Positions 21,057 to 36,756 of a stretch of DNA of 64,000 bases are shown one piece after another. Made by a program: the position numbers and the translations under genes. The DNA lies in NCBI GenBank assembly GCA_023920165.1, contig CP089278.1, positions 3,100,001 through 3,164,000 of the forward strand, written 5' to 3'. How positions within the stretch are numbered: the stretch's first letter is position 1; each line of letters starts with the position of its first letter. The notes beneath the pieces are model-generated. The model did no database searches. It saw nothing but the letters and a program-made list of their open reading frames with translations, and was not told where the DNA came from. Origin of the DNA: Curvularia clavata (lineage: Eukaryota).

Positions 21057-22890
21057 CTAAAGTCTTTCAATCTCGACAATGTTGCCTTGTCCATCAACCC
21101 TGAACTTCTTCTTCATGAGTGAGGCATTCCTCGGGTTTGGTGCATTGAAGATGTCATCAATCTCCTCGAGCGTACGGTTTTTAGTCTCCGGAATAAAGAG
21201 CCAGACAATGAAAGCCTGAATGGGGCACCAGCAAGCAAACACTATGTACAACTTCCAACCGATGTTCTGCAAAGCGATAGGGTAAGCAAATTGGTTAATC
21301 ATCATAGCCACGATCAAGGAAAACTGTGAGAACGCCATGCCCTTTGCTCGGATTTCAAAAGACAGTACCTCAACGGGATAGAGTGCCTGGAGTGGTGTGA
21401 TGCCGAATGCATAAACAGCGTTGAATAAGAACACGAGTGCGACAAACGCGTTTCCAGCGGGGACGCTGTTGTGTTTGTTCTGGTAGGAAACAGCACTGAT
21501 GGCGCCAACCCAGATGAAGGTCATGGCACCGAACGCCCCTATCAGCATCGGCCGGCGACCGATTTTATCAACAAAGGTAGCGCCAATCACAGCCTATCAC
21601 GAGGAGTCAGCTTGTACTAGCAGATTAAAAGCCAGAAAACCTACGAAGGTAAGCTGCATACAGCTTTTGCCAAGGTTAATGTTCATCTGCGTAATCTCCT
21701 CTTTGACTCCTGCAGATTCAAGAACGCCAGCAAAAAAGTAATCTATAGCTCCATTTCCAGCCCACTGGGCAAAAATGGAAACAACACAGTTACAGGCGAC
21801 TCGGTAGCGCGCTTGGCGGGTCTTGAAGAGTGAGCCATAGTCCCACCAGCGCTTGTCACCTCCGTTCATGTTGAGATAAAGCTCATACTCACGGATCTGC
21901 ATGGAGACCCAAATACTGTCTTCGTTGCCACCACCGTGATATTTTGTGAGAATCTTTTTGGCTTCTGCCTTTCTTCCACGAGTGTAGAGCCAACGGGGTG
22001 ATTCCTTCTTAAAGATTAGCAAAGCTTTGTCACCGAACTGCTAGGTAGAGGCAACTTACAGGCAGAAACCATGGTAGTATGACAAGAAGTGCTGGAAAGA
22101 GCATTTGAAGCCATACGGGAACTCTCCAAGACTGATTACCCTCAAGACCGGCAGATCCGCGAGTAACACCGGCTGCAAGAAGCGACCCGACGTACCAGAA
22201 AGTGTTGTAAAGACCGGTAACGACGCCTCGATGAGCAGGGTGCGCAGTCTCGGTGACGTGCACCGGCCCAGCAGTCGACATAATGGGTACAGCGAATCCA
22301 AGCAAAAAGCGGCCGCCCATGACTTAGCAAAGAGTCAAAAAAAGGTTTCATGCGCAATTGGTGAGTTGGAATGACTTACACTGACCAACAGGCTTGGTGG
22401 CAGGAGCAGTCGATTGAATGATCACCCCAGCACAGCCAAGAACGCCCCCGATAACCATACCAACTCTGCGACCCCAAGTATCGCAAGCAGGTCCTATTAC
22501 TAGAAGTGCAACCACACCACCAATTTGATACATGGATGTTACAATACCAGCCCATGCACCAGTACTTTCGACATTGTAGTATTCCTTGAACTGTTTGTTG
22601 GTGAGAAGAGAGCCGAACATGGAGCCGTCAAACCCATTGCAGGAAGAGCAGAAGAAGCCGACGAATGCACAAAGGTATAGCAACATTGTTGCACTGGTGA
22701 AAAGCTTCACGGGCTCTTTCAATTTGGCCTCTGCAATAGCCTCAGAGCCGGCGACAACGGCGATTTCCGCCATGACATTGTTGCTGGCCTTTTGAAATGT
22801 AAGCTGCCCATGTACCTAAATGATAAGGGTACAGGTACTCACGGAGCGTTGTGAGTCCGTACTGACATGAATCTCCTTGACGTCAGACAT
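21057..22890 (-). CDS. MFS sugar porter, lactose permease/cellodextrin transporter-like, multi-exon
   Basis: MSDVKEIH start. NGFDGSM, DTWGRR, ETAHPAHRG, ESPRWL, QWAGNG, DKIGRRP, YPVEVLSFEIRAKG and PETKNRTLEEID across spliced exons. Confidence 0.9.
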
Positions 22891-26517: not shown

Positions 26518-27950
26518 CTATCCAGCTTCACCTGTTAACATGACCGTGCCAAAGATGTGCGGCGACTCGTTTCTCTTGTTCTTTCCTAGCCACTTGACAA
26601 TTGAATTCCAATCAGCATCCAAACTATCCTCGTCAAGGAAAAGCTCGTATGATTTCTCGTCGGACGCTTCCTCACTCTCTTTGAGAAGAATACTCGTCAT
26701 CGTTCGGTCCCATAACTTTTTGCGCTTCTCAGCTTGGATTCGAAAGTCCTCAAAGAAAACCTGCCCGGGCGCGTCTGGGCGCAACCATACACCAAAACGT
26801 TTCTCGCCCCATTCGATTGCTATGCGGAGCTTGTCGGAGGGTACGTCTGGCCGGGTTTCAGAGACTGCACTCGTGGAGGCAGCGGTTGCAACGGTGGCAC
26901 GGTACAGGTTAGGTTGCGAGGTTTCGTGTTGCGTTGGTTGTGAGCCAAGAAATGCGTTTGACGGCATGTTTTGCGGGTAGTGATGGCTTTCCATTGGCCC
27001 ACCAGAAGCTGACGGTGCAAAATTCATGGTTTCTGGTATTATCGGGATATGGTTGTTGTGCCGTGTTTGATACTGTGTTCGTAGCGAATCATTGTTTGTG
27101 TCGGCGGAACGATGGAACGATCCTAGAGGCGGCGATCGACCTGAAGGTTGCAGTCCTGAATTGTATCCCTGAAAGGGACTAGGCTCAGGATGCAGTGGTG
27201 GAACATCGGGAGCGGGATATTCTGAAGAAATTGGAGCGTTGATCAGCACAGTAAAATAGCAGTGTTCGCCAAACACTGTGCGTACGCACCTACACCAGTA
27301 TCGATGTGACTAAGGATGATATCATCATCGAGTGCTTCATCGGAAACTACGCAGAATTCGGTTCTATGTGTTCTGCCAGACTTTGGACGACGCCAGGTCA
27401 GTTCTACTAAGCAATGATATGGAACAGCAATGGTTGTTCTTGTGTCCGCATTCCCAGGTATATGGACTTCCCCCCCTTCTCTCGAGACTGTATTGGCATC
27501 GATCTCGTCCTCGGATAATAGGTTATGGCGGATGACGCTGTGGGTGGTTATTGGTGCGATTTTCATATGGACGGGTTGCTCCTTAACACCATCTTCGGTA
27601 TTTTTCAACAGATAGATGTACTGTTTATGGCCACTGCTACCTTTTGTCGAATCTGACCTTGGGGTCCTCGCAGGGCTAAGAGGATACGCTGATGGCGGGC
27701 GCTGTGTAGTTTCCCGTTGGTGAATATGGGAACCAGAATGATGCGACTCGTGCAGAGAGGGTGCCACAGAGGATCCGAATGATCCTCTTCCTGCTGGCTG
27801 ATGCGGCGACGCGCCCGGTTTCGGGATAAAGTAAAAGATTTTATCGCAAACTTCCTGATACTTGCAACACTCAGCGAGGATGTCCTGGACTTTCTCCTGG
27901 TCGTATTCGAACAGTTGCGCGACTATTGCGCGTGCCTTGCCGTACTCCAT
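26518..27950 (-). CDS. retropepsin-like pseudo-protease with P/S/Q-rich linker and putative PB1/ubiquitin-like C-terminal domain (about 454 aa)
   Basis: The two overlapping ORFs join in frame through intron 27222-27289 (GTGCGT..GCTGAT..CAG). VHMKIAPITTHSVIRHNLL, VELTW, TEFCVV and DDIILS follow the retropepsin pattern but lack DTG. Confidence 0.65.
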
Positions 27951-28544
27951 TCCCTGTGGTCAAGGCAGACTGGAGCCGCATGTGTGCCTGACGCTTACCG
28001 GTATCAGCGTTGCACAACCGAAGTCCGGATATGCTGTGAGGGGCAGCGCGAACCGAGGCGCATTCAATCAACATGGCTCATACTTGTCGCCTGAAGGGGT
28101 AAGAACAATGAGATGCGCGAGGCGCAATGCGCGCGAAACAGAGGCCGCTGGCGATGCAGAAGACGATGAGGCGCAGATGGGAAGGGCGGCCGTGATGAAA
28201 GTGGGGTCCATCGATTTCTCATACCAACATGGCGTTCGCAACCACGCCTTTCCCTGATGATTTGACCGGAAACGCCCATGTTCGCACCATCTCTGACAGG
28301 ACTGGCTGGCTCATACGCCACATGCAACCGGCAAGGCAGATACTACTAGCATATCACACCCCCCCGCTCGGCTGCTCAGGCCCTCAAGCGCTCAGTACCG
28401 ATCGCACCCCCGTCCATTCAGGCCTGGGCAGTTCAAGACTCTTGGGCATCCTGCCCGCATGTGCTTCTCGCCATCTCGGGCATGCATCCCACTATGTCTG
28501 CGACGTCTGCCTCCAGCCGCTGCTCCAACGACAAGAGAGCGACC

Positions 28545-29255
28545 ATGATGGCTACATCAGTGAGCCGAAACATTTCTAGCGGCAATGCCGTCCAGATTAA
28601 TGGTCCGGTAGCAGACAAAGTCTGTAATCTTCACTTGTAAGTTCTGATCCAACTTCAAAAACCAAGGCGTTGCTGATGTATCCAAGTCAAAACCTAATCG
28701 TCAGTTGCCAGTGCATCTCGGTCACCAAGTTAGTCACTTCGGCGAAAGCACCAGCAACTTCGAGTACTCCAATATTAGAGCCACCGACTTCCTTGAGTGT
28801 GAAACAGGTTCCATCTGTGGTGCAAGTCGTTGACCAACCGGTCACAGCCTTGCTGGTGAGTGCAACTTACCACAACATACCGTATAACAGGTACTCATGG
28901 TATGCAGGAGAGCGCCTCAAACAAAGCAGACTTTCGTCAAGAGAATCTGGTTTTCACTTCTCGGCTGCGTAAGATACGTCAAGTTGTTCGCGCCATATTT
29001 CGACCTGATCTACCCATCAGCTTCATTGACCGCCGGATAGTAAAACGACTTGAATTAGTGACGCATCACTACAACCGGAATGGAAAGGAGATCTCAATGA
29101 ATCAATCAAAAACACCATACATGACAGACTACGTTGACCTTCCTTGCTGCCCAAGCAAGGGTGGTAAATGCGTCATACATCGATTTTACGTCGTCAAAGA
29201 GTGCCCTTTCGACCTCGTATTCGGCGCCAATTCGATAGACCCCCACCATTCATAA
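28545..29255 (+). CDS. small protein with N-terminal amyloid-like motif and C-terminal retropepsin-like pseudo-protease (about 202 aa, 3 exons)
   Basis: Exons 28545-28636, 28687-28855 and 28908-29255 splice in frame (GTAAGT..AAG, GTGAGT..CAG). Starts MMATSVSRNISSGNAVQINGPV; later VRAIFRPDLPISFIDRRIVKRL, YVDL, HRFYVV, PFDLVFG. Confidence 0.75.
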
Positions 29256-29652
29256 TCCGCAGAAGACGATGACTCGACGCGGTTGGACTGCATGAATTCA
29301 AGACGAAAGGTATATCTTGACTCGCGTCAAGCCAGTCAGCCCTGGATTGCGTTTATCGGGATCTGCTGCTTCCCATTGGGTGCCGGCAACGATGCGAACG
29401 TGGGGTACTTGTGGTGTGCAGCTGCAGCTGCAGGGCGCTTCACGATGGCGAATCAGTGGTTGAAACCACCAATACTGCTGGTTTGTCACTGGACAACCAC
29501 CAGATGTAATGGCTGCATAATTAATACTGCGCCGAGCGTGGCTCTGCTTTGCTCGGCTGGTCATAAATACGCTATTGTATCAGCTCAACTGCCGGTGCAA
29601 CTTCGTTTCCATCTGTATCTTGATTCAAGCCAACTGTCGCACGATCTTCAAT

Positions 29653-30621
29653 ATGGTAAGTTGAATAAGCAGATTGGGAAAAATTTGAGCTTACGTGGTC
29701 CTAGGTTGACCCCATCAGCCTCGTCTCTGCAATCCAAGCTAGTACTCAACTCATGGAGCAAGCCTTTCGGATTCTAAAACGTCTTCGCACGGCGTATGAG
29801 CGACAGAAAGATGTTGTCGACGTGTTGAATCGACACGAAACTGAACTGTCTGGTGTCAAAACCATCATTGGTATAATCGAAGATGAGGATGGGTTGCGAA
29901 CTCCAAGCATCGCTATGGAATTGGGTCGGTTACAGGTTGTCCAAACAAAATTGGCTAAATTGCTTCATGATCTGGATCCACAGGGGAAGGGAAAAGTAAG
30001 CCAGTATACACGGCAATTGATACATGGCTCAGAAGATGAACGGAAACTGTGCGTGATCATGACTGAACTGGCGCATGTCAAGTCAACACTTCTCGTTTGC
30101 ATTCAAGTTGCCAATATTCGAGAGATGGGCAACAGGTTCGAGGCCAATGCAGAAGCCATCCAGCGCATCGACCAAATCCTTCGAGAAAACTGCGAGGGTC
30201 TACAAATTGCACGCTTACTAAAAGGCAGACGCCCGTCAAGTAAGTGTTCCATATTTCCAGATTTGCTAAAACGTTACTTACGAAATTAGATGACGGATAC
30301 GTGCCACTGACTCGGGCTGAGCTGAAGTCCCTTGAAAATGACGCAAGCAATAGCGAATGCAGCGAAGACGAGACTTTGGTTGACGAGTCTGAAGAGAAAC
30401 AGCCAAATGGTATCTTTAAAACTGAGCGTATTTTGTCAAACAACGAATCGCACGATGAGTCTGTTCAGATTAACGGTCCAGTGGAAAAGGACCTTTGGAA
30501 ACACATCAGCCGACTGGAGATAAAAGACAATCACTCTAAAGACAAGAGTCTCCAATTCAACTACGCCATGCCTCTCAATGTGGTCTTGGCCCTTCTTAAG
30601 AATAGGCGGGATGGATCATAA
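29653..30621 (+). CDS. HeLo-like/SesA-type helical effector with C-terminal two-repeat amyloid-like domain (about 289 aa, 3 exons)
   Basis: ATG, intron 29656-29704, VDPISLVSAIQASTQL amphipathic N-terminal helix and helical bundle, intron 30240-30289, acidic linker, repeats at 30436-30483 and 30523-30570. Confidence 0.8.
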
Positions 30622-30978
30622 GGGAACAAACCAGGAAATTGAGTCCATGTCAGGAACACGCTGTCAGGGTCGTGTGTAGGTAGCAATCTTGAGTCGCTGT
30701 TGTATGAGATCTTTTGTCGCTTTCAGTAGTATGATTGAATGAGATGATTCTATGTCCAAAATGCCGTTGCCACCACGTAGTGACACGAAGATGAGGACTG
30801 ATGTGGTGAATGTCAGAGTACACATGCGGTTGGAAGACAAAGGCTTGAGATCCACATCTGACTCAGGCGTCTTATCGATAACGACCACGTTGCACGCTTC
30901 AACCGCGTCCCGTATCCAGCCCTCGGATGCACCACCAATATGTGAAGCCACGCGCCCACATTACGCGTTGCGCAAAAC

Positions 30979-31701
30979 ATGTACCACCTTTTCAAGTCTA
31001 TATACCTCCATGCAACGAGCAAAGAAGGCACGATTCTTTTCTCCCAGACATGCCGAAACGCCGCCTAACTATGTCTAGAATACTCTGTTCTCCTCCTCGG
31101 CCTCGATAATGCCGGCAAAACAACTCTCCTCGAGCAAATAAAAGGCACATACACCTCTGCGAACGCGAACCTCAGGACAGTCCCAACAGTTGGACAAAAT
31201 GTCGCTACCATTGCGCTTCCGCCGCCAAACCCTCCGATCTATCTTAAGATATGGGATGTCGGAGGCCAACATAGCCTGCGCGGTCTTTGGCAATCCTACT
31301 ACAGCAGTTGCCACGCCATTGTATTCGTCATAGATAGCAGCGACGTCGGGAATGCGACGCTGGCGGATCTGAGCGCGAGCAATGCAGCGAACAACGAGGA
31401 TATAGGCAGGCTGGATGAGTGTAAGCTAGTACTCGAGAGTGTGCTGGCGAATGAAGAGGCTAGCGGTGTGCCCATTCTCATCTTGGCGAATAAGCAAGAC
31501 AGAGAAGATTGCGTCGAGGTTGTTAGGATCAAGGAGGGGTTTGTCAGGAGAGTGTTTGAGGGTGAGAAGGGCGGCAACATGAGAGATAGCAGAGTGTTGC
31601 CTTGTAGTGCGCTTACAGGCACCGGTGTGCAAGAGGCTGTCGAATGGTTGTGCAGCAGGATGGCTTTCAACAAAGAGGCACGGCCGCCGGTTATGCGGTA
31701 G
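30979..31701 (+). CDS. ARL3: ARF-like small GTPase Arl3/ARFRP1
   Basis: MYHLFKSIYLHATSKE, GC-AG intron 31028-31078, then EYSVLLLGLDNAGKTT, PTVGQN, WDVGGQ, LANKQD, CSAL. Confidence 0.93.
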
Positions 31702-32482: not shown

Positions 32483-33523
32483 ATGGATCGGCTCGGCGCC
32501 TGGGTGAAGCAGCATTTCCGTCCAAAATCAAGTCTCAGAAAACAACCTTCAAAAAAGCTGCCGTATCTCCCCTCGACACGTCGCCCCCTCACACCAACAT
32601 CGCTAGAAAACCCAGCATGCTCTTTCTTCGAACTCCCTGGCGATATTCGAAGCAAGATTCTCACCATGGCCTTTGGTGGACGTACCCTCCATATAGATAT
32701 TGTGCAACAAAATGAAGCCTGGCAATCGCGAGGTGCTGTCTGCAACCGGAACCTGCCAGGGCTGCTACCATCTATGCAGTACACCTGTATTAGCCCATTG
32801 AATGAGCAATGCCCGGAATGTTACAGTGAGGGAAAAGGAAGGGATTTAGAAAGTTATAACATGGGCATCATGGGGTTCTTGCTGTCTTGCAGGCAGGCGT
32901 ACACCGAAGGTATCGAGTTTTTATACTCTACCAACAGCATCAACATTCAGAGCGAGGCCTTGCTCCTTCAACTCCCACAACTTATTTTTCCCAATCGACT
33001 TGCATGCATCAAGGCCCTGGAAATAGTCATCAGGGTGCATCATATCCAGCAGGAAGAGAGTGGGTTATCGCTGAACATAGACCACCTGAAGCCTATCCTT
33101 GATCACATCGTCGCGCATTGCCATAGCCTTCATAGCATTTGCATCTCGTTCGTGACCCAGAGCTGGGGTAGTGGGAAACTCAACGGCCTAGCATTGCCCT
33201 TGGTCGATGACTTTTATCAAACCACACGGTTGCGCGACATGAGAGTGGAGCTACCCCCTGGAGCCTATGGGGCAGCGTTCAAATCTGAATCCCTAAATGA
33301 TCCCCCACGCGAGGCGCCACTCATCAGGCGGTTCCCTAGATCGATATGGAGATCTTTGGATGATGAGGTGCCTGTGGTACAGAGGAGATCCCTCGAGCGC
33401 TATCCATATCCACCATTGAGGTGGCCTGCACTTGGTGGCGAAGACAAGAACATAGAGAGCGCGGGGTATTGGGTTTCCATTGGGTTTGAAGAGACAATCC
33501 GATCGCCCATGGTGTGCTTTTAG
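32483..33523 (+). CDS. hypothetical protein with F-box-like/DUF7730-type N-terminal domain
   Basis: FFELPGDIRSKILTMAFGGRTLHI and FLLSCRQAYTEGIEFLYSTN are typical of this ascomycete family. Confidence 0.7.
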   Translation: MDRLGAWVKQHFRPKSSLRKQPSKKLPYLPSTRRPLTPTSLENPACSFFELPGDIRSKILTMAFGGRTLHIDIVQQNEAWQSRGAVCNRNLPGLLPSMQYTCISPLNEQCPECYSEGKGRDLESYNMGIMGFLLSCRQAYTEGIEFLYSTNSINIQSEALLLQLPQLIFPNRLACIKALEIVIRVHHIQQEESGLSLNIDHLKPILDHIVAHCHSLHSICISFVTQSWGSGKLNGLALPLVDDFYQTTRLRDMRVELPPGAYGAAFKSESLNDPPREAPLIRRFPRSIWRSLDDEVPVVQRRSLERYPYPPLRWPALGGEDKNIESAGYWVSIGFEETIRSPMVCF

Positions 33524-33665
33524 AGTCACATATAGCCCTAAAGTGCAAATGAATACAAGACAAAAAGGTACTAGCGATAGAGTTCACAGATCTAATCCAG
33601 GACTTGCAATGATTGAAATTGATTGATTGCACGTTGATTAATATACTAAACCTAGCCGGTTGGTT

Positions 33666-34712
33666 TCAATACCCCCGCCAGATAACCTCGTCGCAGTCAG
33701 GGTGCTTGAAATCGCCGTTGCTCATCTCGTACTCATACTCGAGGTCGGGCTGGAGCTCCCAGTACAGTGTTTCCGCGTCGCTTCCCATACGGCACGTATA
33801 CTCAGCGGCCTCATCGTCGATATAAATCTTGGGCACGCCGTTGGCAGCAGCGGCTTCGACTTGAAGTTGAACTGCACAGGAGCGTTCCATAAGGGTGTAG
33901 AGATATGCAGCCTCGTCAACGGTTTGTCCTACAGTCTGGCTAGTGTTAATACAGCAACTTCGTGAGTGTCAAAAACTAAAGGTGTGAACTTACCAGTAGG
34001 CCGTGATTGCGCAAAATCATACCCTTGCCCTTCGGTCCTAGTGCGGCGGCTAGTCTTTTGCCCTCCTCTTCACTGAAGACAATTCCGCCGAATTCTTTAT
34101 AAACGGCTTGCGCCTCGCCATAAAAGTAGCACACATCCTGGTTGATCATTTCCAAGGGCTTGGCGAAAGCGCTCCAGGCTTTGCCGGCTATGCCATGGCA
34201 ATGGCACGCGGCATTGACATCGGGCCGCGCCTTGTGTAGCGCTGAGTGAATAAGGAAGCCAGCACCATTGGCGGGCCTGCTCTGATTACCCCCTACGACC
34301 TTTCCATCGTAGTCGACAAGTACCATGTCCGAAGCCTTGAGCAAAGCAAAGTGCTTACCAAGTGGGTTCGTCCAGAAAGTGTGTGGGTGCTCAGGGTCGC
34401 GAACAGAGATGTGCCCGCTCATGCCCTCTGCCAGTCCATGCCTAGCAAAGACACGAAAGGCGCCTGCCACATGTTATTTAATGCGTCTGATTACATAGAA
34501 ACTAGGGACTTTTACTAACCCGCCATGTGAGAGAGCATCCATGCGCGCTGTTTGTCATACGAAGAGAAGAGAGGTACGCCGGGAAGACACACTCCTTGTG
34601 AGATAGCTTGGAGCGGCGTCAATTCTTTTGACTCGTTATCCTTTGAGCGTGGTACCAGTTGTTTAGACTGTGGCGCCGGTGTCGGCTCGGCTTGAATGGC
34701 TGAGGGGGCCAT
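33666..34712 (-). CDS. class II aldolase/adducin family protein, 3 exons
   Basis: GHISVRDPE, FWTNPLG, GFLIHSALHKARPDVNAACHCH, ILRNHGLL, TVDEAAYL. Confidence 0.92.
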
Positions 34713-35233
34713 GCTGAGGATAAATGAGGCAATAAAATCCGACTGATGGATGGGAAAATTGTCAAAAAGTCACAGTTGATAAAGAAAAGTGTACGCTAGA
34801 TCCGTCCAAGTACTACTGATACCGTGCAGATAAGCCCTACTTATTCACATGATGAAATCTTGGTCGTCGCTCAATGAGGCGTGTCCACGCGAAACAGTGG
34901 GTTCATATCGACCGGCCCGGTCCAGCTTGTGGCGGTATGCGGGGTACTTGCAACCGGACACCAATACCCAGTTGTGCCAGTTACGTCCGGTCTACAGCTG
35001 CGAACACTACGTTTTCCTCAAAGACTTCACCCGGTATGGCTCTCGGTAATGATGGTGTCAACGTGTGAGAAACTTAATTCGTTATTTACACACATGCTGT
35101 ACGTCTCACCACTTTAGAAGCAGGTTTTTTCTTCCGGTCGGCAAATCACCACATCGGTCCTGATGGCAATATGAACATCTGAATGATATTATTTAATAAT
35201 TACATACTGATACAAGTCACTCTCGATACAGCC

Positions 35234-36756
35234 CTACATCTTACCGCCAGGGAAACTGGACAGCAAGCCCATGTCGAATTTAGCAGCTTGTGGGCAACCA
35301 AGCGTTGCGAGAATCGGGTCCAGAACAGTGGCCAACTTTCGCACAGCAAGCAAAACGTTTCCAAGCAGACCATCCAGGATATCCGGTGAGGCAAACTGGA
35401 TGAACTGGAATGCGAAGCACATGCAGTTGTTGCCTTCAAGGAGCGTTTCCGCGTTGAAAACACCGCCCGTCAGATCGCCAATGTTAACTCCAGTGAACGT
35501 GTTGGGTTTGCCGGTGTTGCCGCCAACGACAGCCATGTAAGGGAGCACCTGGAGCGAACGTACGGCATCGAGAGTGAATGCAGCAAGCCCGTACTCATCA
35601 CCAATAGCGCGGCGGTACCACTGTGTTGAGAGTTAGATAACATTCCAGTCTCAAAATGCAAATGGGTCCACATACGTTTTCAGGGATCTTTTCACGGCCT
35701 GAAGCCCACTGGAAGCTTCCTGGCTCTCCAGTGACACCCTCGAACGACTTGAGAGTTTCGGCGCTAAGATAGCCGTCAGGGAATTCGGCGCTGTGGTTGC
35801 GGAAGAAATGATAGGTGAACAGATAGGTTGCGGTATTGATGGCGAAGTGTGTGAATGGACCAGCGAAATAGCGGCCGTTGGTTGCAATCGAGTTGTTAAA
35901 GCGCGAGCCACGGAATGGAAGCATGACTGTGAGATCGTAGCCGTTCGGGCCCTTGGGCATGGCCATGAGCTCTTCGAACTGAGACATGTCGAGGGAATCG
36001 GCATCGCCACTGGAGACAGTTAGTTATGGCGTTCTTAGGTTGGTTGTGAACAGGTAGCGCAGTTGCCTACGACGTACGTCTTGTACAAGTCCGCTCGTGT
36101 TGGAGAGCAGTCAGCCTCGAAACGGTTGTGCGACGCACTCAGACCTTGTGGCTCTCCGAGAAGACCAAGCGAAGAGGTCAATCCACCCAGGAGTCCTCCG
36201 CTCTTTGGCTTGCCACCGATAGATACCGAGGTAATATCTCCTGCCATGATACCAGAGTACACGGAAAGGAACGCAGAGAGATCGGTTGACATGCCGAAGA
36301 CTAGCAAATTGTTAGCATCCGGATAATCGATAGTACATTTTCACGCACCCTCAGTAGAAGCAGCAGTCAATTCCAAGACCGATGCAACACCAGTTCGGGA
36401 GATGTAGCCGTGGTTGGCTAGGACATTCAGACCTGGGCAAGGTCCACGAATGTCGTTGGGGCCTGGAGCAATCTACAACGACATGTCAGTAAATCAAACA
36501 GAATTCCCTCAAGAGAAGCACATACGTATCGATGCTCTCCAGAAGTGCTGATGCGCTGGGCGTTGGCATTGAATCCTGGCTTGATGATGCCGGCTCCAAG
36601 TTGGCGCTTCACGTCCGCCTCTCTCTTGATCTTCTCCACCAATCCAGTGATTTCCGCGAGGGTCTCATCACTGATGTCCTTGTTGAGCAGACTGGCCGGG
36701 AAGGCAAACGCCGACGCGGCGAACAGCGAAGCGCTGCACAGAGTCGAAAACTTCAT
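35234..36756 (-). CDS. secreted heme-thiolate peroxidase / unspecific peroxygenase (chloroperoxidase family), multi-exon
   Basis: Signal peptide MKFSTLCSASLFAASAFAFP. DIRGPCPGLNVLANHGY (PCP proximal Cys) near 36400-36455; SHNRFEADCSPTRAD. Confidence 0.9.

What the first reader, a model, noticed from the sequence alone, without database searches (positions are those of the whole stretch)
28590..30483. Shared VQINGPV core differs only at synonymous third codon positions
R0 reads gtc cag att aat ggt ccg gta and R1 reads gtt cag att aac ggt cca gtg. All four nucleotide differences are silent third-position changes, and the flanking DNA is unrelated. This argues for protein-level selection to keep the two peptides identical, as templating would require, rather than a recent DNA duplication or chance. 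R1 and R2 also place E opposite H and E opposite K, similar to the inter-rung salt bridges of the HET-s beta-solenoid (inference).
Basis: partly seen in the sequence, partly recalled or inferred. Interest (0 to 1): 0.7.

Follow-up and report, generated by a model that had tools for sequence, protein, structure and literature searches.

The report
Fungal amyloid switch without immune receptor
A fungal cell-death-type gene ends in a two-repeat motif predicted to fold like the HET-s prion, and the matching single copy that should trigger it sits on a small neighbouring protein resembling a dead protease rather than on the usual immune receptor, which suggests an undescribed way of switching on this kind of cell death.

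Summary
The codons are as stated, but the argument from them is weak. Identical peptides can only differ silently, and 4.5 differences are expected against 4 seen. The 7/7 identity is lineage-specific: 2-5/7 in 14 other loci.

The underlying system is real. Gene B (289 aa) has a HeLo-like four-helix domain (hhalign 96.8%; MLKL among top fold matches). Its C-terminal R1-R2 model matches only the HELLF and HET-s prion folds among 48,161 chains (Z 4.5, 4.2). R1 and R2 co-vary and pair opposite charges in register (100 vs 9). The motif fails the HRAM1-5 signature.

R0 lies at the N-terminus of gene A (219 aa, splicing RNA-supported), a retropepsin-like protein lacking the catalytic Asp, not an NLR. 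It is present in 16 of 16 related loci long enough to show it and is under strong purifying selection (pN/pS 0.06). It shares a Q16M/N18 change with R1 and R2 in one divergent clade. A third gene, U, with another dead-protease-like domain, accompanies the pair in 10 of 10 loci.

Best reading: an NLR-free amyloid-signalling cassette (0.65). Templating and killing are untested.

The parts
26518..27221 (-). Gene U, exon 2: low-complexity stretch, then a conserved ~100-aa C-terminal domain (26521-26835) of unassigned fold
   Evidence: Conserved in 10 of 10 loci with enough upstream DNA. No Pfam, PDB-sequence, Atlas or PB1 match.
27290..27950 (-). Gene U, exon 1 (U = 454 aa): helical start, low-complexity stretch, retropepsin-like-looking domain (about 27294-27650) without an Asp-Thr/Ser-Gly motif
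   Evidence: Intron 27222-27289 inferred from a joint in run X1 plus GT..AG ends and frame. Alignment. Only weak profile likeness to A's domain (prob 8.8, E 0.004), so the fold is inferred.
28494..28636 (+). Gene A exon 1 (A = 219 aa), carries R0
   Evidence: Joint 28636>28687 in run X3. Upstream ATG matches ortholog starts. Frame check.
28548..28610 (+). R0: single copy of the 21-residue motif; core VQINGPV at 28590-28610
   Evidence: Present in 16 of 16 loci long enough.
28687..28855 (+). Gene A exon 2: conserved short beta-prone stretch, then variable linker
   Evidence: RNA joints; ortholog translations.
28908..29255 (+). Gene A exon 3: retropepsin-like domain (about 28941-29237); the catalytic D-T/S-G position reads (F)RP
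   Evidence: ESM Atlas score 0.95 to RVP_2/gag-asp_proteas clusters, 10 of 10 top family hits agree. Alignment. One of 14 members hits Pfam Asp_protease at E 0.24. The placement of the catalytic position is by eye.
29653..30239 (+). Gene B start codon (29653-29655), intron 29656-29704, exon 2 (29705-30239): HeLo-like four-helix N-terminal domain
   Evidence: Introns in runs X11 and X15. hhalign to own-genome PF17111 domains: prob 96.8, E 2e-10, 134 columns. Homolog model matches MLKL at Z 11.4.
30290..30621 (+). Gene B exon 3 (B = 289 aa): acidic linker, R1, 8-residue W-containing loop, R2, C-terminal helix
   Evidence: Intron 30240-30289 and poly(A) near 30761 in run X15; model.
30421..30483 (+). 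R1; core VQINGPV at 30463-30483
30508..30570 (+). R2

Best explanation
A three-gene fungal cell-death cassette that works like NWD2/HET-S but without an NLR.

Shown by sequence or prediction: B is a HeLo-like protein whose C-terminal R1-R2 can form a two-rung HET-s/HELLF-type beta-solenoid. A carries one copy of the same motif at its N-terminus, fused to a retropepsin-like domain with no catalytic Asp. U travels with both.

Inferred: clustering of A brings R0 copies together. They nucleate the solenoid and template R1-R2, which frees B's N-terminal domain to attack the membrane.

More speculative: the dead-protease domains of A and U pair (retropepsin folds are dimeric, from established knowledge) and serve as the sensor or brake. 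Selection keeps the inward ladder (N8, small 10/14, Q or M16, N18) compatible among R0, R1 and R2, not the seven residues identical.
For: Fold: the B tail model (pLDDT 91.8) gives 2 matches of 48,161 chains, HELLF 6eka (Z 4.5, rmsd 2.6, 53 aligned) and HET-s 2kj3 (Z 4.2, rmsd 5.0). 6eka also ranks first in Foldseek (TM 0.70 by target, E 0.92).
N-domain: HeLo-like by profile. MLKL, Rx-CC, MLA13, NRG1.1 and AtMLKL3 are 6 of the top 24 fold rows.
R1/R2 stacking in 62 of 74 parsed homologs: position 16 is QQ in 48 and MM in 11. Opposite charges in register number 100 vs 9 like charges; shifted registers give 35/10, 25/67, 54/17, 24/26.
R0: found in 16 of 16 long-enough loci. Core pN/pS is 0.06 vs 0.48 for A's protease-like domain and 0.25 for the R1 core. 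D/E/K content is 1.6% vs 8.5% and 16.9% in R1 and R2, the r0 trait described in PMC4518210. Q16M with loss of N18 occurs in all three repeats in L016/L017/L019.
No NLR: none of 48 NACHT matches lies in the window (nearest about 117 kb away). No R0-like motif occurs in the 30 NACHT loci scanned. All 9 R0-bearing database proteins are A-type or fragments of A.
Adjacent locus tags in three Pyrenophora teres annotations. The window's flanking genes are not found in the related loci.
Against: No experiment. The Z-scores are low (4.2-4.5) and HET-s was probably known to the predictor. Helical-bundle Z under 13 can be generic, and the top row was IncA (Z 11.9). Pfam hits are sub-threshold (PF17111 in 5 of 70, SesA in 3 of 70).
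The R0/R1/R2 co-change rests on one clade, a single event. R0-R1 identity is only 6-10 of 21. R0 and most R1 carry Pro at 20, and R2 never has Gly at 19, unlike HRAMs.
The window's N-terminal helix is less hydrophobic (0.73) than most homologs (0.8-2.1 in 18 of 19). No oligomerisation or sensing mechanism is shown for A. Partners of the distant B homologs (Aspergillus, Penicillium, Fusarium, Botrytis) could not be seen and may be NLRs. The R0 protein search scored only 7,999 candidates, and 18 of 48 NACHT loci were not scanned.
Confidence: 0.65

Rival explanations
1. R0 binds B's solenoid as a cap or decoy. A is an inhibitor (antidote) that blocks spontaneous conversion of B, and loss of A releases killing.
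For: R0 is more conserved than R1 or R2, and A has no recognisable oligomerisation or sensor domain. Pro20 in R0 could end a fibril. Inhibitory hetero-amyloids exist (viral M45, passage in PMC13506858).
Against: R0's low charge is what homotypic R0 stacking predicts (PMC4518210). Pro20 is also in 47 of 62 R1. N-terminal R0 next to a C-terminal R1-R2 effector is the activator layout.
Confidence: 0.15
2. R1-R2 is a small soluble two-rung beta-solenoid capped by its Trp loop and C-terminal helix. R0 adds one rung in a discrete A-B complex, with no fibril or prion behaviour.
For: Loop length is nearly fixed (8 residues in 56 of 62) with a conserved Trp, unlike the variable Gly-rich loops of HRAMs. 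The monomer model is confident.
Against: The only structural matches are amyloid fibrils. HELLF-type HRAMs also have short loops and a C-terminal short segment (supplement rows).
Confidence: 0.1
3. The true trigger is an unlinked NLR or other receptor. A is an adaptor or a relic of a duplicated B tail.
For: Unlinked NLR-effector pairs are suspected (PMC9815663 section 24). 57 of 155 HRAM effectors had no adjacent NLR. R0 aligns with R1 plus loop, as a duplicate would.
Against: R0 is under strong selection. The motif pattern occurs only at R0 and R1 in the 32-Mb genome (the pattern was derived from them). There was no hit in 30 NACHT loci.
Confidence: 0.08
4. Chance match or recent DNA duplication with no function.
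For: Exact 7-mer repeats arise by chance in the window; all four changes are transitions.
Against: Conservation of R0 across loci with saturated synonymous sites (pS 0.70-0.85) and the independent matrix test.
Confidence: 0.02

Closest known systems
NWD2/HET-S and FNT1/HELLF of Podospora anserina; HRAM1-5 (PMC4344463, PMC4518210, bioRxiv 10.1101/2020.07.06.188508)
   Same: Adjacent genes; HeLo-like effector with C-terminal R1-R2; single low-charge N-terminal R0 on the neighbour; predicted beta-solenoid; in-register charge pairing; concerted change.
   Different: The R0 carrier is a 219-aa retropepsin-like protein, not a NACHT/NB-ARC receptor. The motif has N8, Q/M16, N18 and P20, no Gly19 in R2, and a fixed Trp loop. 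Its strings are absent from the 155-pair HRAM table. A third gene (U) co-travels.
PUASM, PP, sigma and other fungal amyloid signalling motifs (PMC9815663)
   Same: Motif shared between an effector C-terminus and a neighbour's N-terminus.
   Different: Those were found by starting from NLRs or NLR proximity. This motif is a two-repeat HET-s-fold type and its strings were not found in the 11 supplements searched.
Bab/Agp antiphage system of E. coli (bioRxiv 10.1101/2024.11.07.622273)
   Same: A non-NLR protein with an N-terminal amyloid motif activates an adjacent HeLo-related killer, so a non-NLR donor has a bacterial precedent.
   Different: [quoted passage not shown] Here the donor is small, protease-like and fungal.
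Retropepsin-fold proteins (Pfam RVP_2, gag-asp_proteas; Ddi1-like)
   Same: Domain features of A's C-terminal half.
   Different: No catalytic Asp, no retroelement context, no ubiquitin-like domain recognised.

Membership tests
HRAM1-5 (Daskalov 2015) | Two ~21-residue pseudo-repeats at the C-terminus of a HeLo-related protein under 310 aa | tested here: met
   B is 289 aa; R1 and R2 with an 8-residue loop.
HRAM1-5 (Daskalov 2015) | Conserved Gly at position 19 | tested here: not met
   Gly in R0 (13 of 13 aligned) and in 30 of 62 R1, but 0 of 62 R2 (Y/H/D). The register was set by me from the Gly.
HRAM1-5 (Daskalov 2015) | Hydrophobic residues at 5, 8, 10, 16, 18 and R/K at 15 | tested here: not met
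   5 is hydrophobic and 10 small, but 8 and 18 are N, 16 is Q/M and 15 is mostly hydrophobic. A one-residue shift repairs 16/18 but breaks 8/10/19.
HRAM1-5 (Daskalov 2015) | In-register charge complementarity and co-variation of R1 and R2 | tested here: met
   100 opposite vs 9 like pairs; 48 QQ and 11 MM of 62. Relatedness among sequences was not corrected.
HRAM1-5 (Daskalov 2015) | [quoted passage not shown] | tested here: inconclusive
   Predicted only. The only matches are 6eka and 2kj3 at Z 4.5 and 4.2.
HRAM1-5 (Daskalov 2015) | Amyloid/prion behaviour and seeding of R1-R2 by R0 | not testable with these tools
   Needs experiments.
NLR/effector amyloid-signalling pair | R0 on an adjacent NACHT or NB-ARC receptor | tested here: not met
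   A has no P-loop or NOD domain; no NACHT match in the window; R0 carriers are all A-type. NB-ARC was not searched genome-wide.
NLR/effector amyloid-signalling pair | R0 resembles and co-evolves with its cognate R1/R2, with low charge | tested here: met
   The co-change rests on one clade.
HeLo-like (HELL) domain, PF17111-related | Profile homology to HeLo-like domains | tested here: met
   hhalign prob 96.8, E 2.2e-10, 134 columns; six control pairs gave prob under 1. Below Pfam's cut-off. That PF17111 (listed as PigL_N) is the HeLo-like family is recalled.
HeLo-like (HELL) domain, PF17111-related | MLKL-like four-helix bundle with hydrophobic N-terminal helix | tested here: inconclusive
   MLKL Z 11.4, rmsd 2.3, 99 aligned, tied with unrelated bundles. 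Hydropathy 0.73 in the window's B.
HeLo-like (HELL) domain, PF17111-related | Membrane-targeted cell killing | not testable with these tools
   Needs experiments.
Retropepsin (A2-type aspartic protease) | Retropepsin fold | tested here: inconclusive
   Language-model match 0.95; no PDB sequence match; not folded.
Retropepsin (A2-type aspartic protease) | Catalytic D-T/S-G motif | tested here: not met
   Absent from all 14 A rows and all 9 U rows.

The most novel reading that the evidence does not exclude
An NLR-independent amyloid cell-death pathway in fungi. A pseudo-retropepsin (A), gated by a second pseudo-retropepsin protein (U), uses an undescribed HET-s-fold motif to nucleate and activate an MLKL-like pore former (B). 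Dead protease domains would then act as sensors or scaffolds of amyloid signalling.
Probability: 0.4. Interest if true: 0.82.

Novelty: new variant of a known kind. Interest (0 to 1): 0.63.

Why it matters
In the papers I could read, fungal amyloid signalling runs from NLRs to effectors, and the motif screens started from NLRs or from HeLo-family queries. This cassette would have been missed because B falls below Pfam thresholds and its partner is not an NLR. If R0 seeds B, it adds a new motif class of the HET-s fold, with a polar N/Q/N ladder and natural Q and M variants that allow a direct cross-seeding test. It would also add a new kind of upstream switch. B relatives occur in Dothideomycetes, Aspergillus, Penicillium, Fusarium, Botrytis and others, so the family is widespread and unannotated.

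Tried and rejected
- Complex prediction of R0 (33 aa) with B's tail gave 'no answer' (0.14, mark 0.34; alignments not used). It is not counted either way.
- U's C-terminal domain looked PB1-like by eye, but hhalign against four own-genome PB1 domains gave prob 0.08. Atlas, Pfam and PDB-sequence searches were blank.
- Foldseek on the full B homolog gave no match at E<=0.001. PDB sequence search with A's domain gave none.
- No paralogs of B, of A's two parts or of U's C-terminal exon were found in the own genome.
- The annotated 643-aa model P0100 (A+B+Arf fused) was rejected: RNA shows B's own introns and a poly(A) end before the Arf gene.
- Twelve of 74 B homologs did not parse with my repeat pattern and were left out of the counts. 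P0042, a 6,954-aa low-complexity hit, was dropped beforehand.
- Nine of 25 loci were too short to hold R0. One of the 16 with R0 lacked R1 and another lacked R2, leaving 14 for the comparison.
- Literature searches for this arrangement found nothing relevant: no listed amyloid-signalling paper holds 'retropepsin'; 0 papers; unrelated.
- Earlier scan notes had nothing for this place or sequence.

Full report
Setting. The window is fungal: 32 Mb, 8 contigs. Its exon sequences match a Curvularia clavata gene model (P0100). The finding spans two genes, here A and B, next to a divergent third gene, U.

The observation. The two heptapeptides and their codons are as described. The inference is circular, since identical peptides differ only silently. 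The window's codon usage predicts 4.5 differing codons and 4 are seen. Eleven exact 7-mers recur by chance in the six frames. DNA flanks are near random (13/42 and 12/30), yet the protein likeness covers 27 aligned columns. A fairer test used a matrix built only from R1/R2 of 62 homologous proteins. It ranks R2, R1 and R0 first to third among 62,698 positions, with a gap of 18 bits to the next.

Gene structure. Contigs from four runs (one on record as RNA, three guessed) show GT..AG joints for both introns of A (run X3; the first at depth 2) and both of B (X11, X15), and a poly(A) end after B. U's intron is inferred from a joint with a relative's indel. The models are open frames of 219, 289 and 454 aa. 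R0 is therefore fused in frame to A's last exon.

Gene B. The N-terminal domain has no Pfam hit above cut-off. It aligns with 14 own-genome PF17111 domains at prob 96.8, and UniRef names several homologs 'Fungal N-terminal domain-containing protein'. A homolog's model (pLDDT 86.8) matches MLKL, plant CC and CC-R domains and AtMLKL3, mixed with unrelated bundles. The last 70 residues fold at pLDDT 91.8 and match only the HELLF and HET-s fibril structures out of 48,161 chains, with low Z. Of 75 related clusters, 74 were examined and 62 parsed. N8 and N18 are nearly fixed, position 16 switches between Q and M in both repeats together, and opposite charges face each other in register.

Gene A. Exon 3 is retropepsin-like by language-model features and lacks the catalytic Asp in all 14 rows. 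It was not folded. The 9 database proteins carrying R0 are A orthologs, fragments or fused models from Pleosporales; none is an NLR. The genome has 48 NACHT matches, none in the window. Thirty were scanned and none has the motif.

Orthologs. A scan of metagenome contigs gave 25 loci at 47-64% identity, about nine distinct lineages among those long enough. R0 is present in 16 of 16 that reach far enough, and U in 10 of 10. The window's outer neighbours are not found in them. R0-R1 core identity is 7/7 only in the window and 2-5/7 in the other 14. Close relatives read L for I in R1. Among eight lineages, R0's core has 90% mean identity and pN/pS 0.06, against 68% and 0.25 for R1's core and 45% and 0.48 for A's protease-like domain, with synonymous sites saturated. 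On a tree of B's N-domain (33 rows) the window sits in a 100/99 clade whose other 12 rows lack Gly19 in R1, while most outgroups have it; QINGPV ends R1 in 9 of 62 homologs. The window's identity is thus retention of, or return to, the family consensus. An old conversion from R0 is not excluded, given four transitions. In the sister clade, Q16 is M and N18 is T or C in R0, R1 and R2 alike. This is the best sign that R0 stacks on B's repeats, though it is one event.

Mechanism. Shown: architecture, splicing, conservation, co-variation, predicted folds. Inferred: R0 nucleates a solenoid that converts B and releases a membrane-damaging domain, by analogy with NWD2/HET-S, where one 21-residue repeat suffices (PMC4344463). 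Speculative: A's and U's protease-like domains supply the control that a NOD domain normally gives. Odds: activator 0.65, cap or antidote 0.15, soluble complex 0.10, unlinked receptor or relic 0.08, chance 0.02.

Comparison. It works like an HRAM pair but fails two HRAM1-5 sequence criteria and the NLR criterion. Ten of its strings gave no matching motif in the HRAM supplements (one, INGP, occurs in an unrelated canonical HET-s row). In 11 supplements of PMC9815663, six terms gave one unrelated hit; two files were not searched and one was cut, so those may bear on the novelty claim. Bab/Agp is a bacterial precedent for a non-NLR donor. Seven literature searches found no description of this cassette; most subscription journals are outside the library.

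What I saw of each paper. PMC4518210: parts 1-3 of 5 of the text, passages, parts 3 and 5 of supplement 2, string searches. PMC9815663: abstract, sections 19 and 24, supplement searches. bioRxiv 2024.11.07.622273: abstract and section 4. PMC4344463, PMC12881547, PMC13506858, PMC12261475 and bioRxiv 2020.07.06.188508: passages. bioRxiv supplements were not available. That retropepsins dimerise and that PF17111 is the HeLo-like family are recalled.

Verdict. The codon point is ordinary and its strict claim is wrong, but it marks a real, apparently undescribed variant of amyloid signalling. Interest 0.63.

Noticed in passing
window 28856 (donor) and 29704 (acceptor): A's second-intron donor and B's first-intron acceptor are both phase 0, so a splice between them would give an in-frame R0-HeLo-like-R1-R2 protein. 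Annotations from two genera (P0107, P0111) model such a fusion. No contig of the four runs shows it.
   Followed up: partly
window 30218-30281: Run X3 shows a CT..AC joint over gene B, which points to a spliced antisense transcript in a relative.
   Followed up: no
window 28494-31701: The public model P0100 fuses A, B and the downstream Arf-family gene into one 643-aa protein, a likely mis-annotation that hides the system.
   Followed up: yes
window 29705-30239: The window's B has two 3-residue deletions relative to most orthologs and a longer branch (0.41 vs 0.12-0.21 for several siblings).
   Followed up: no
window 26521-26835 (-): Conserved acidic, Trp-rich ~100-aa domain at the end of U with no family, structure or Atlas match.
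   Followed up: partly
L012-L016 versus window 28856-28907: A's second intron appears absent in several orthologs, which read through in one frame. L021 has a six-residue tandem repeat in A's linker.
   Followed up: no
window 31099-31701 and 32483-33523: Arf-family GTPase gene and DUF7730 gene downstream. Five related loci instead have a gene with a GPPGTGKT P-loop there, an AAA ATPase by recall.
   Followed up: no
window 21597-22773, 33660-34712, 35200-36756 (-): ORFs that look like a sugar transporter, a class II aldolase and a heme-thiolate peroxidase (labels recalled from the translations, not tested).
   Followed up: no
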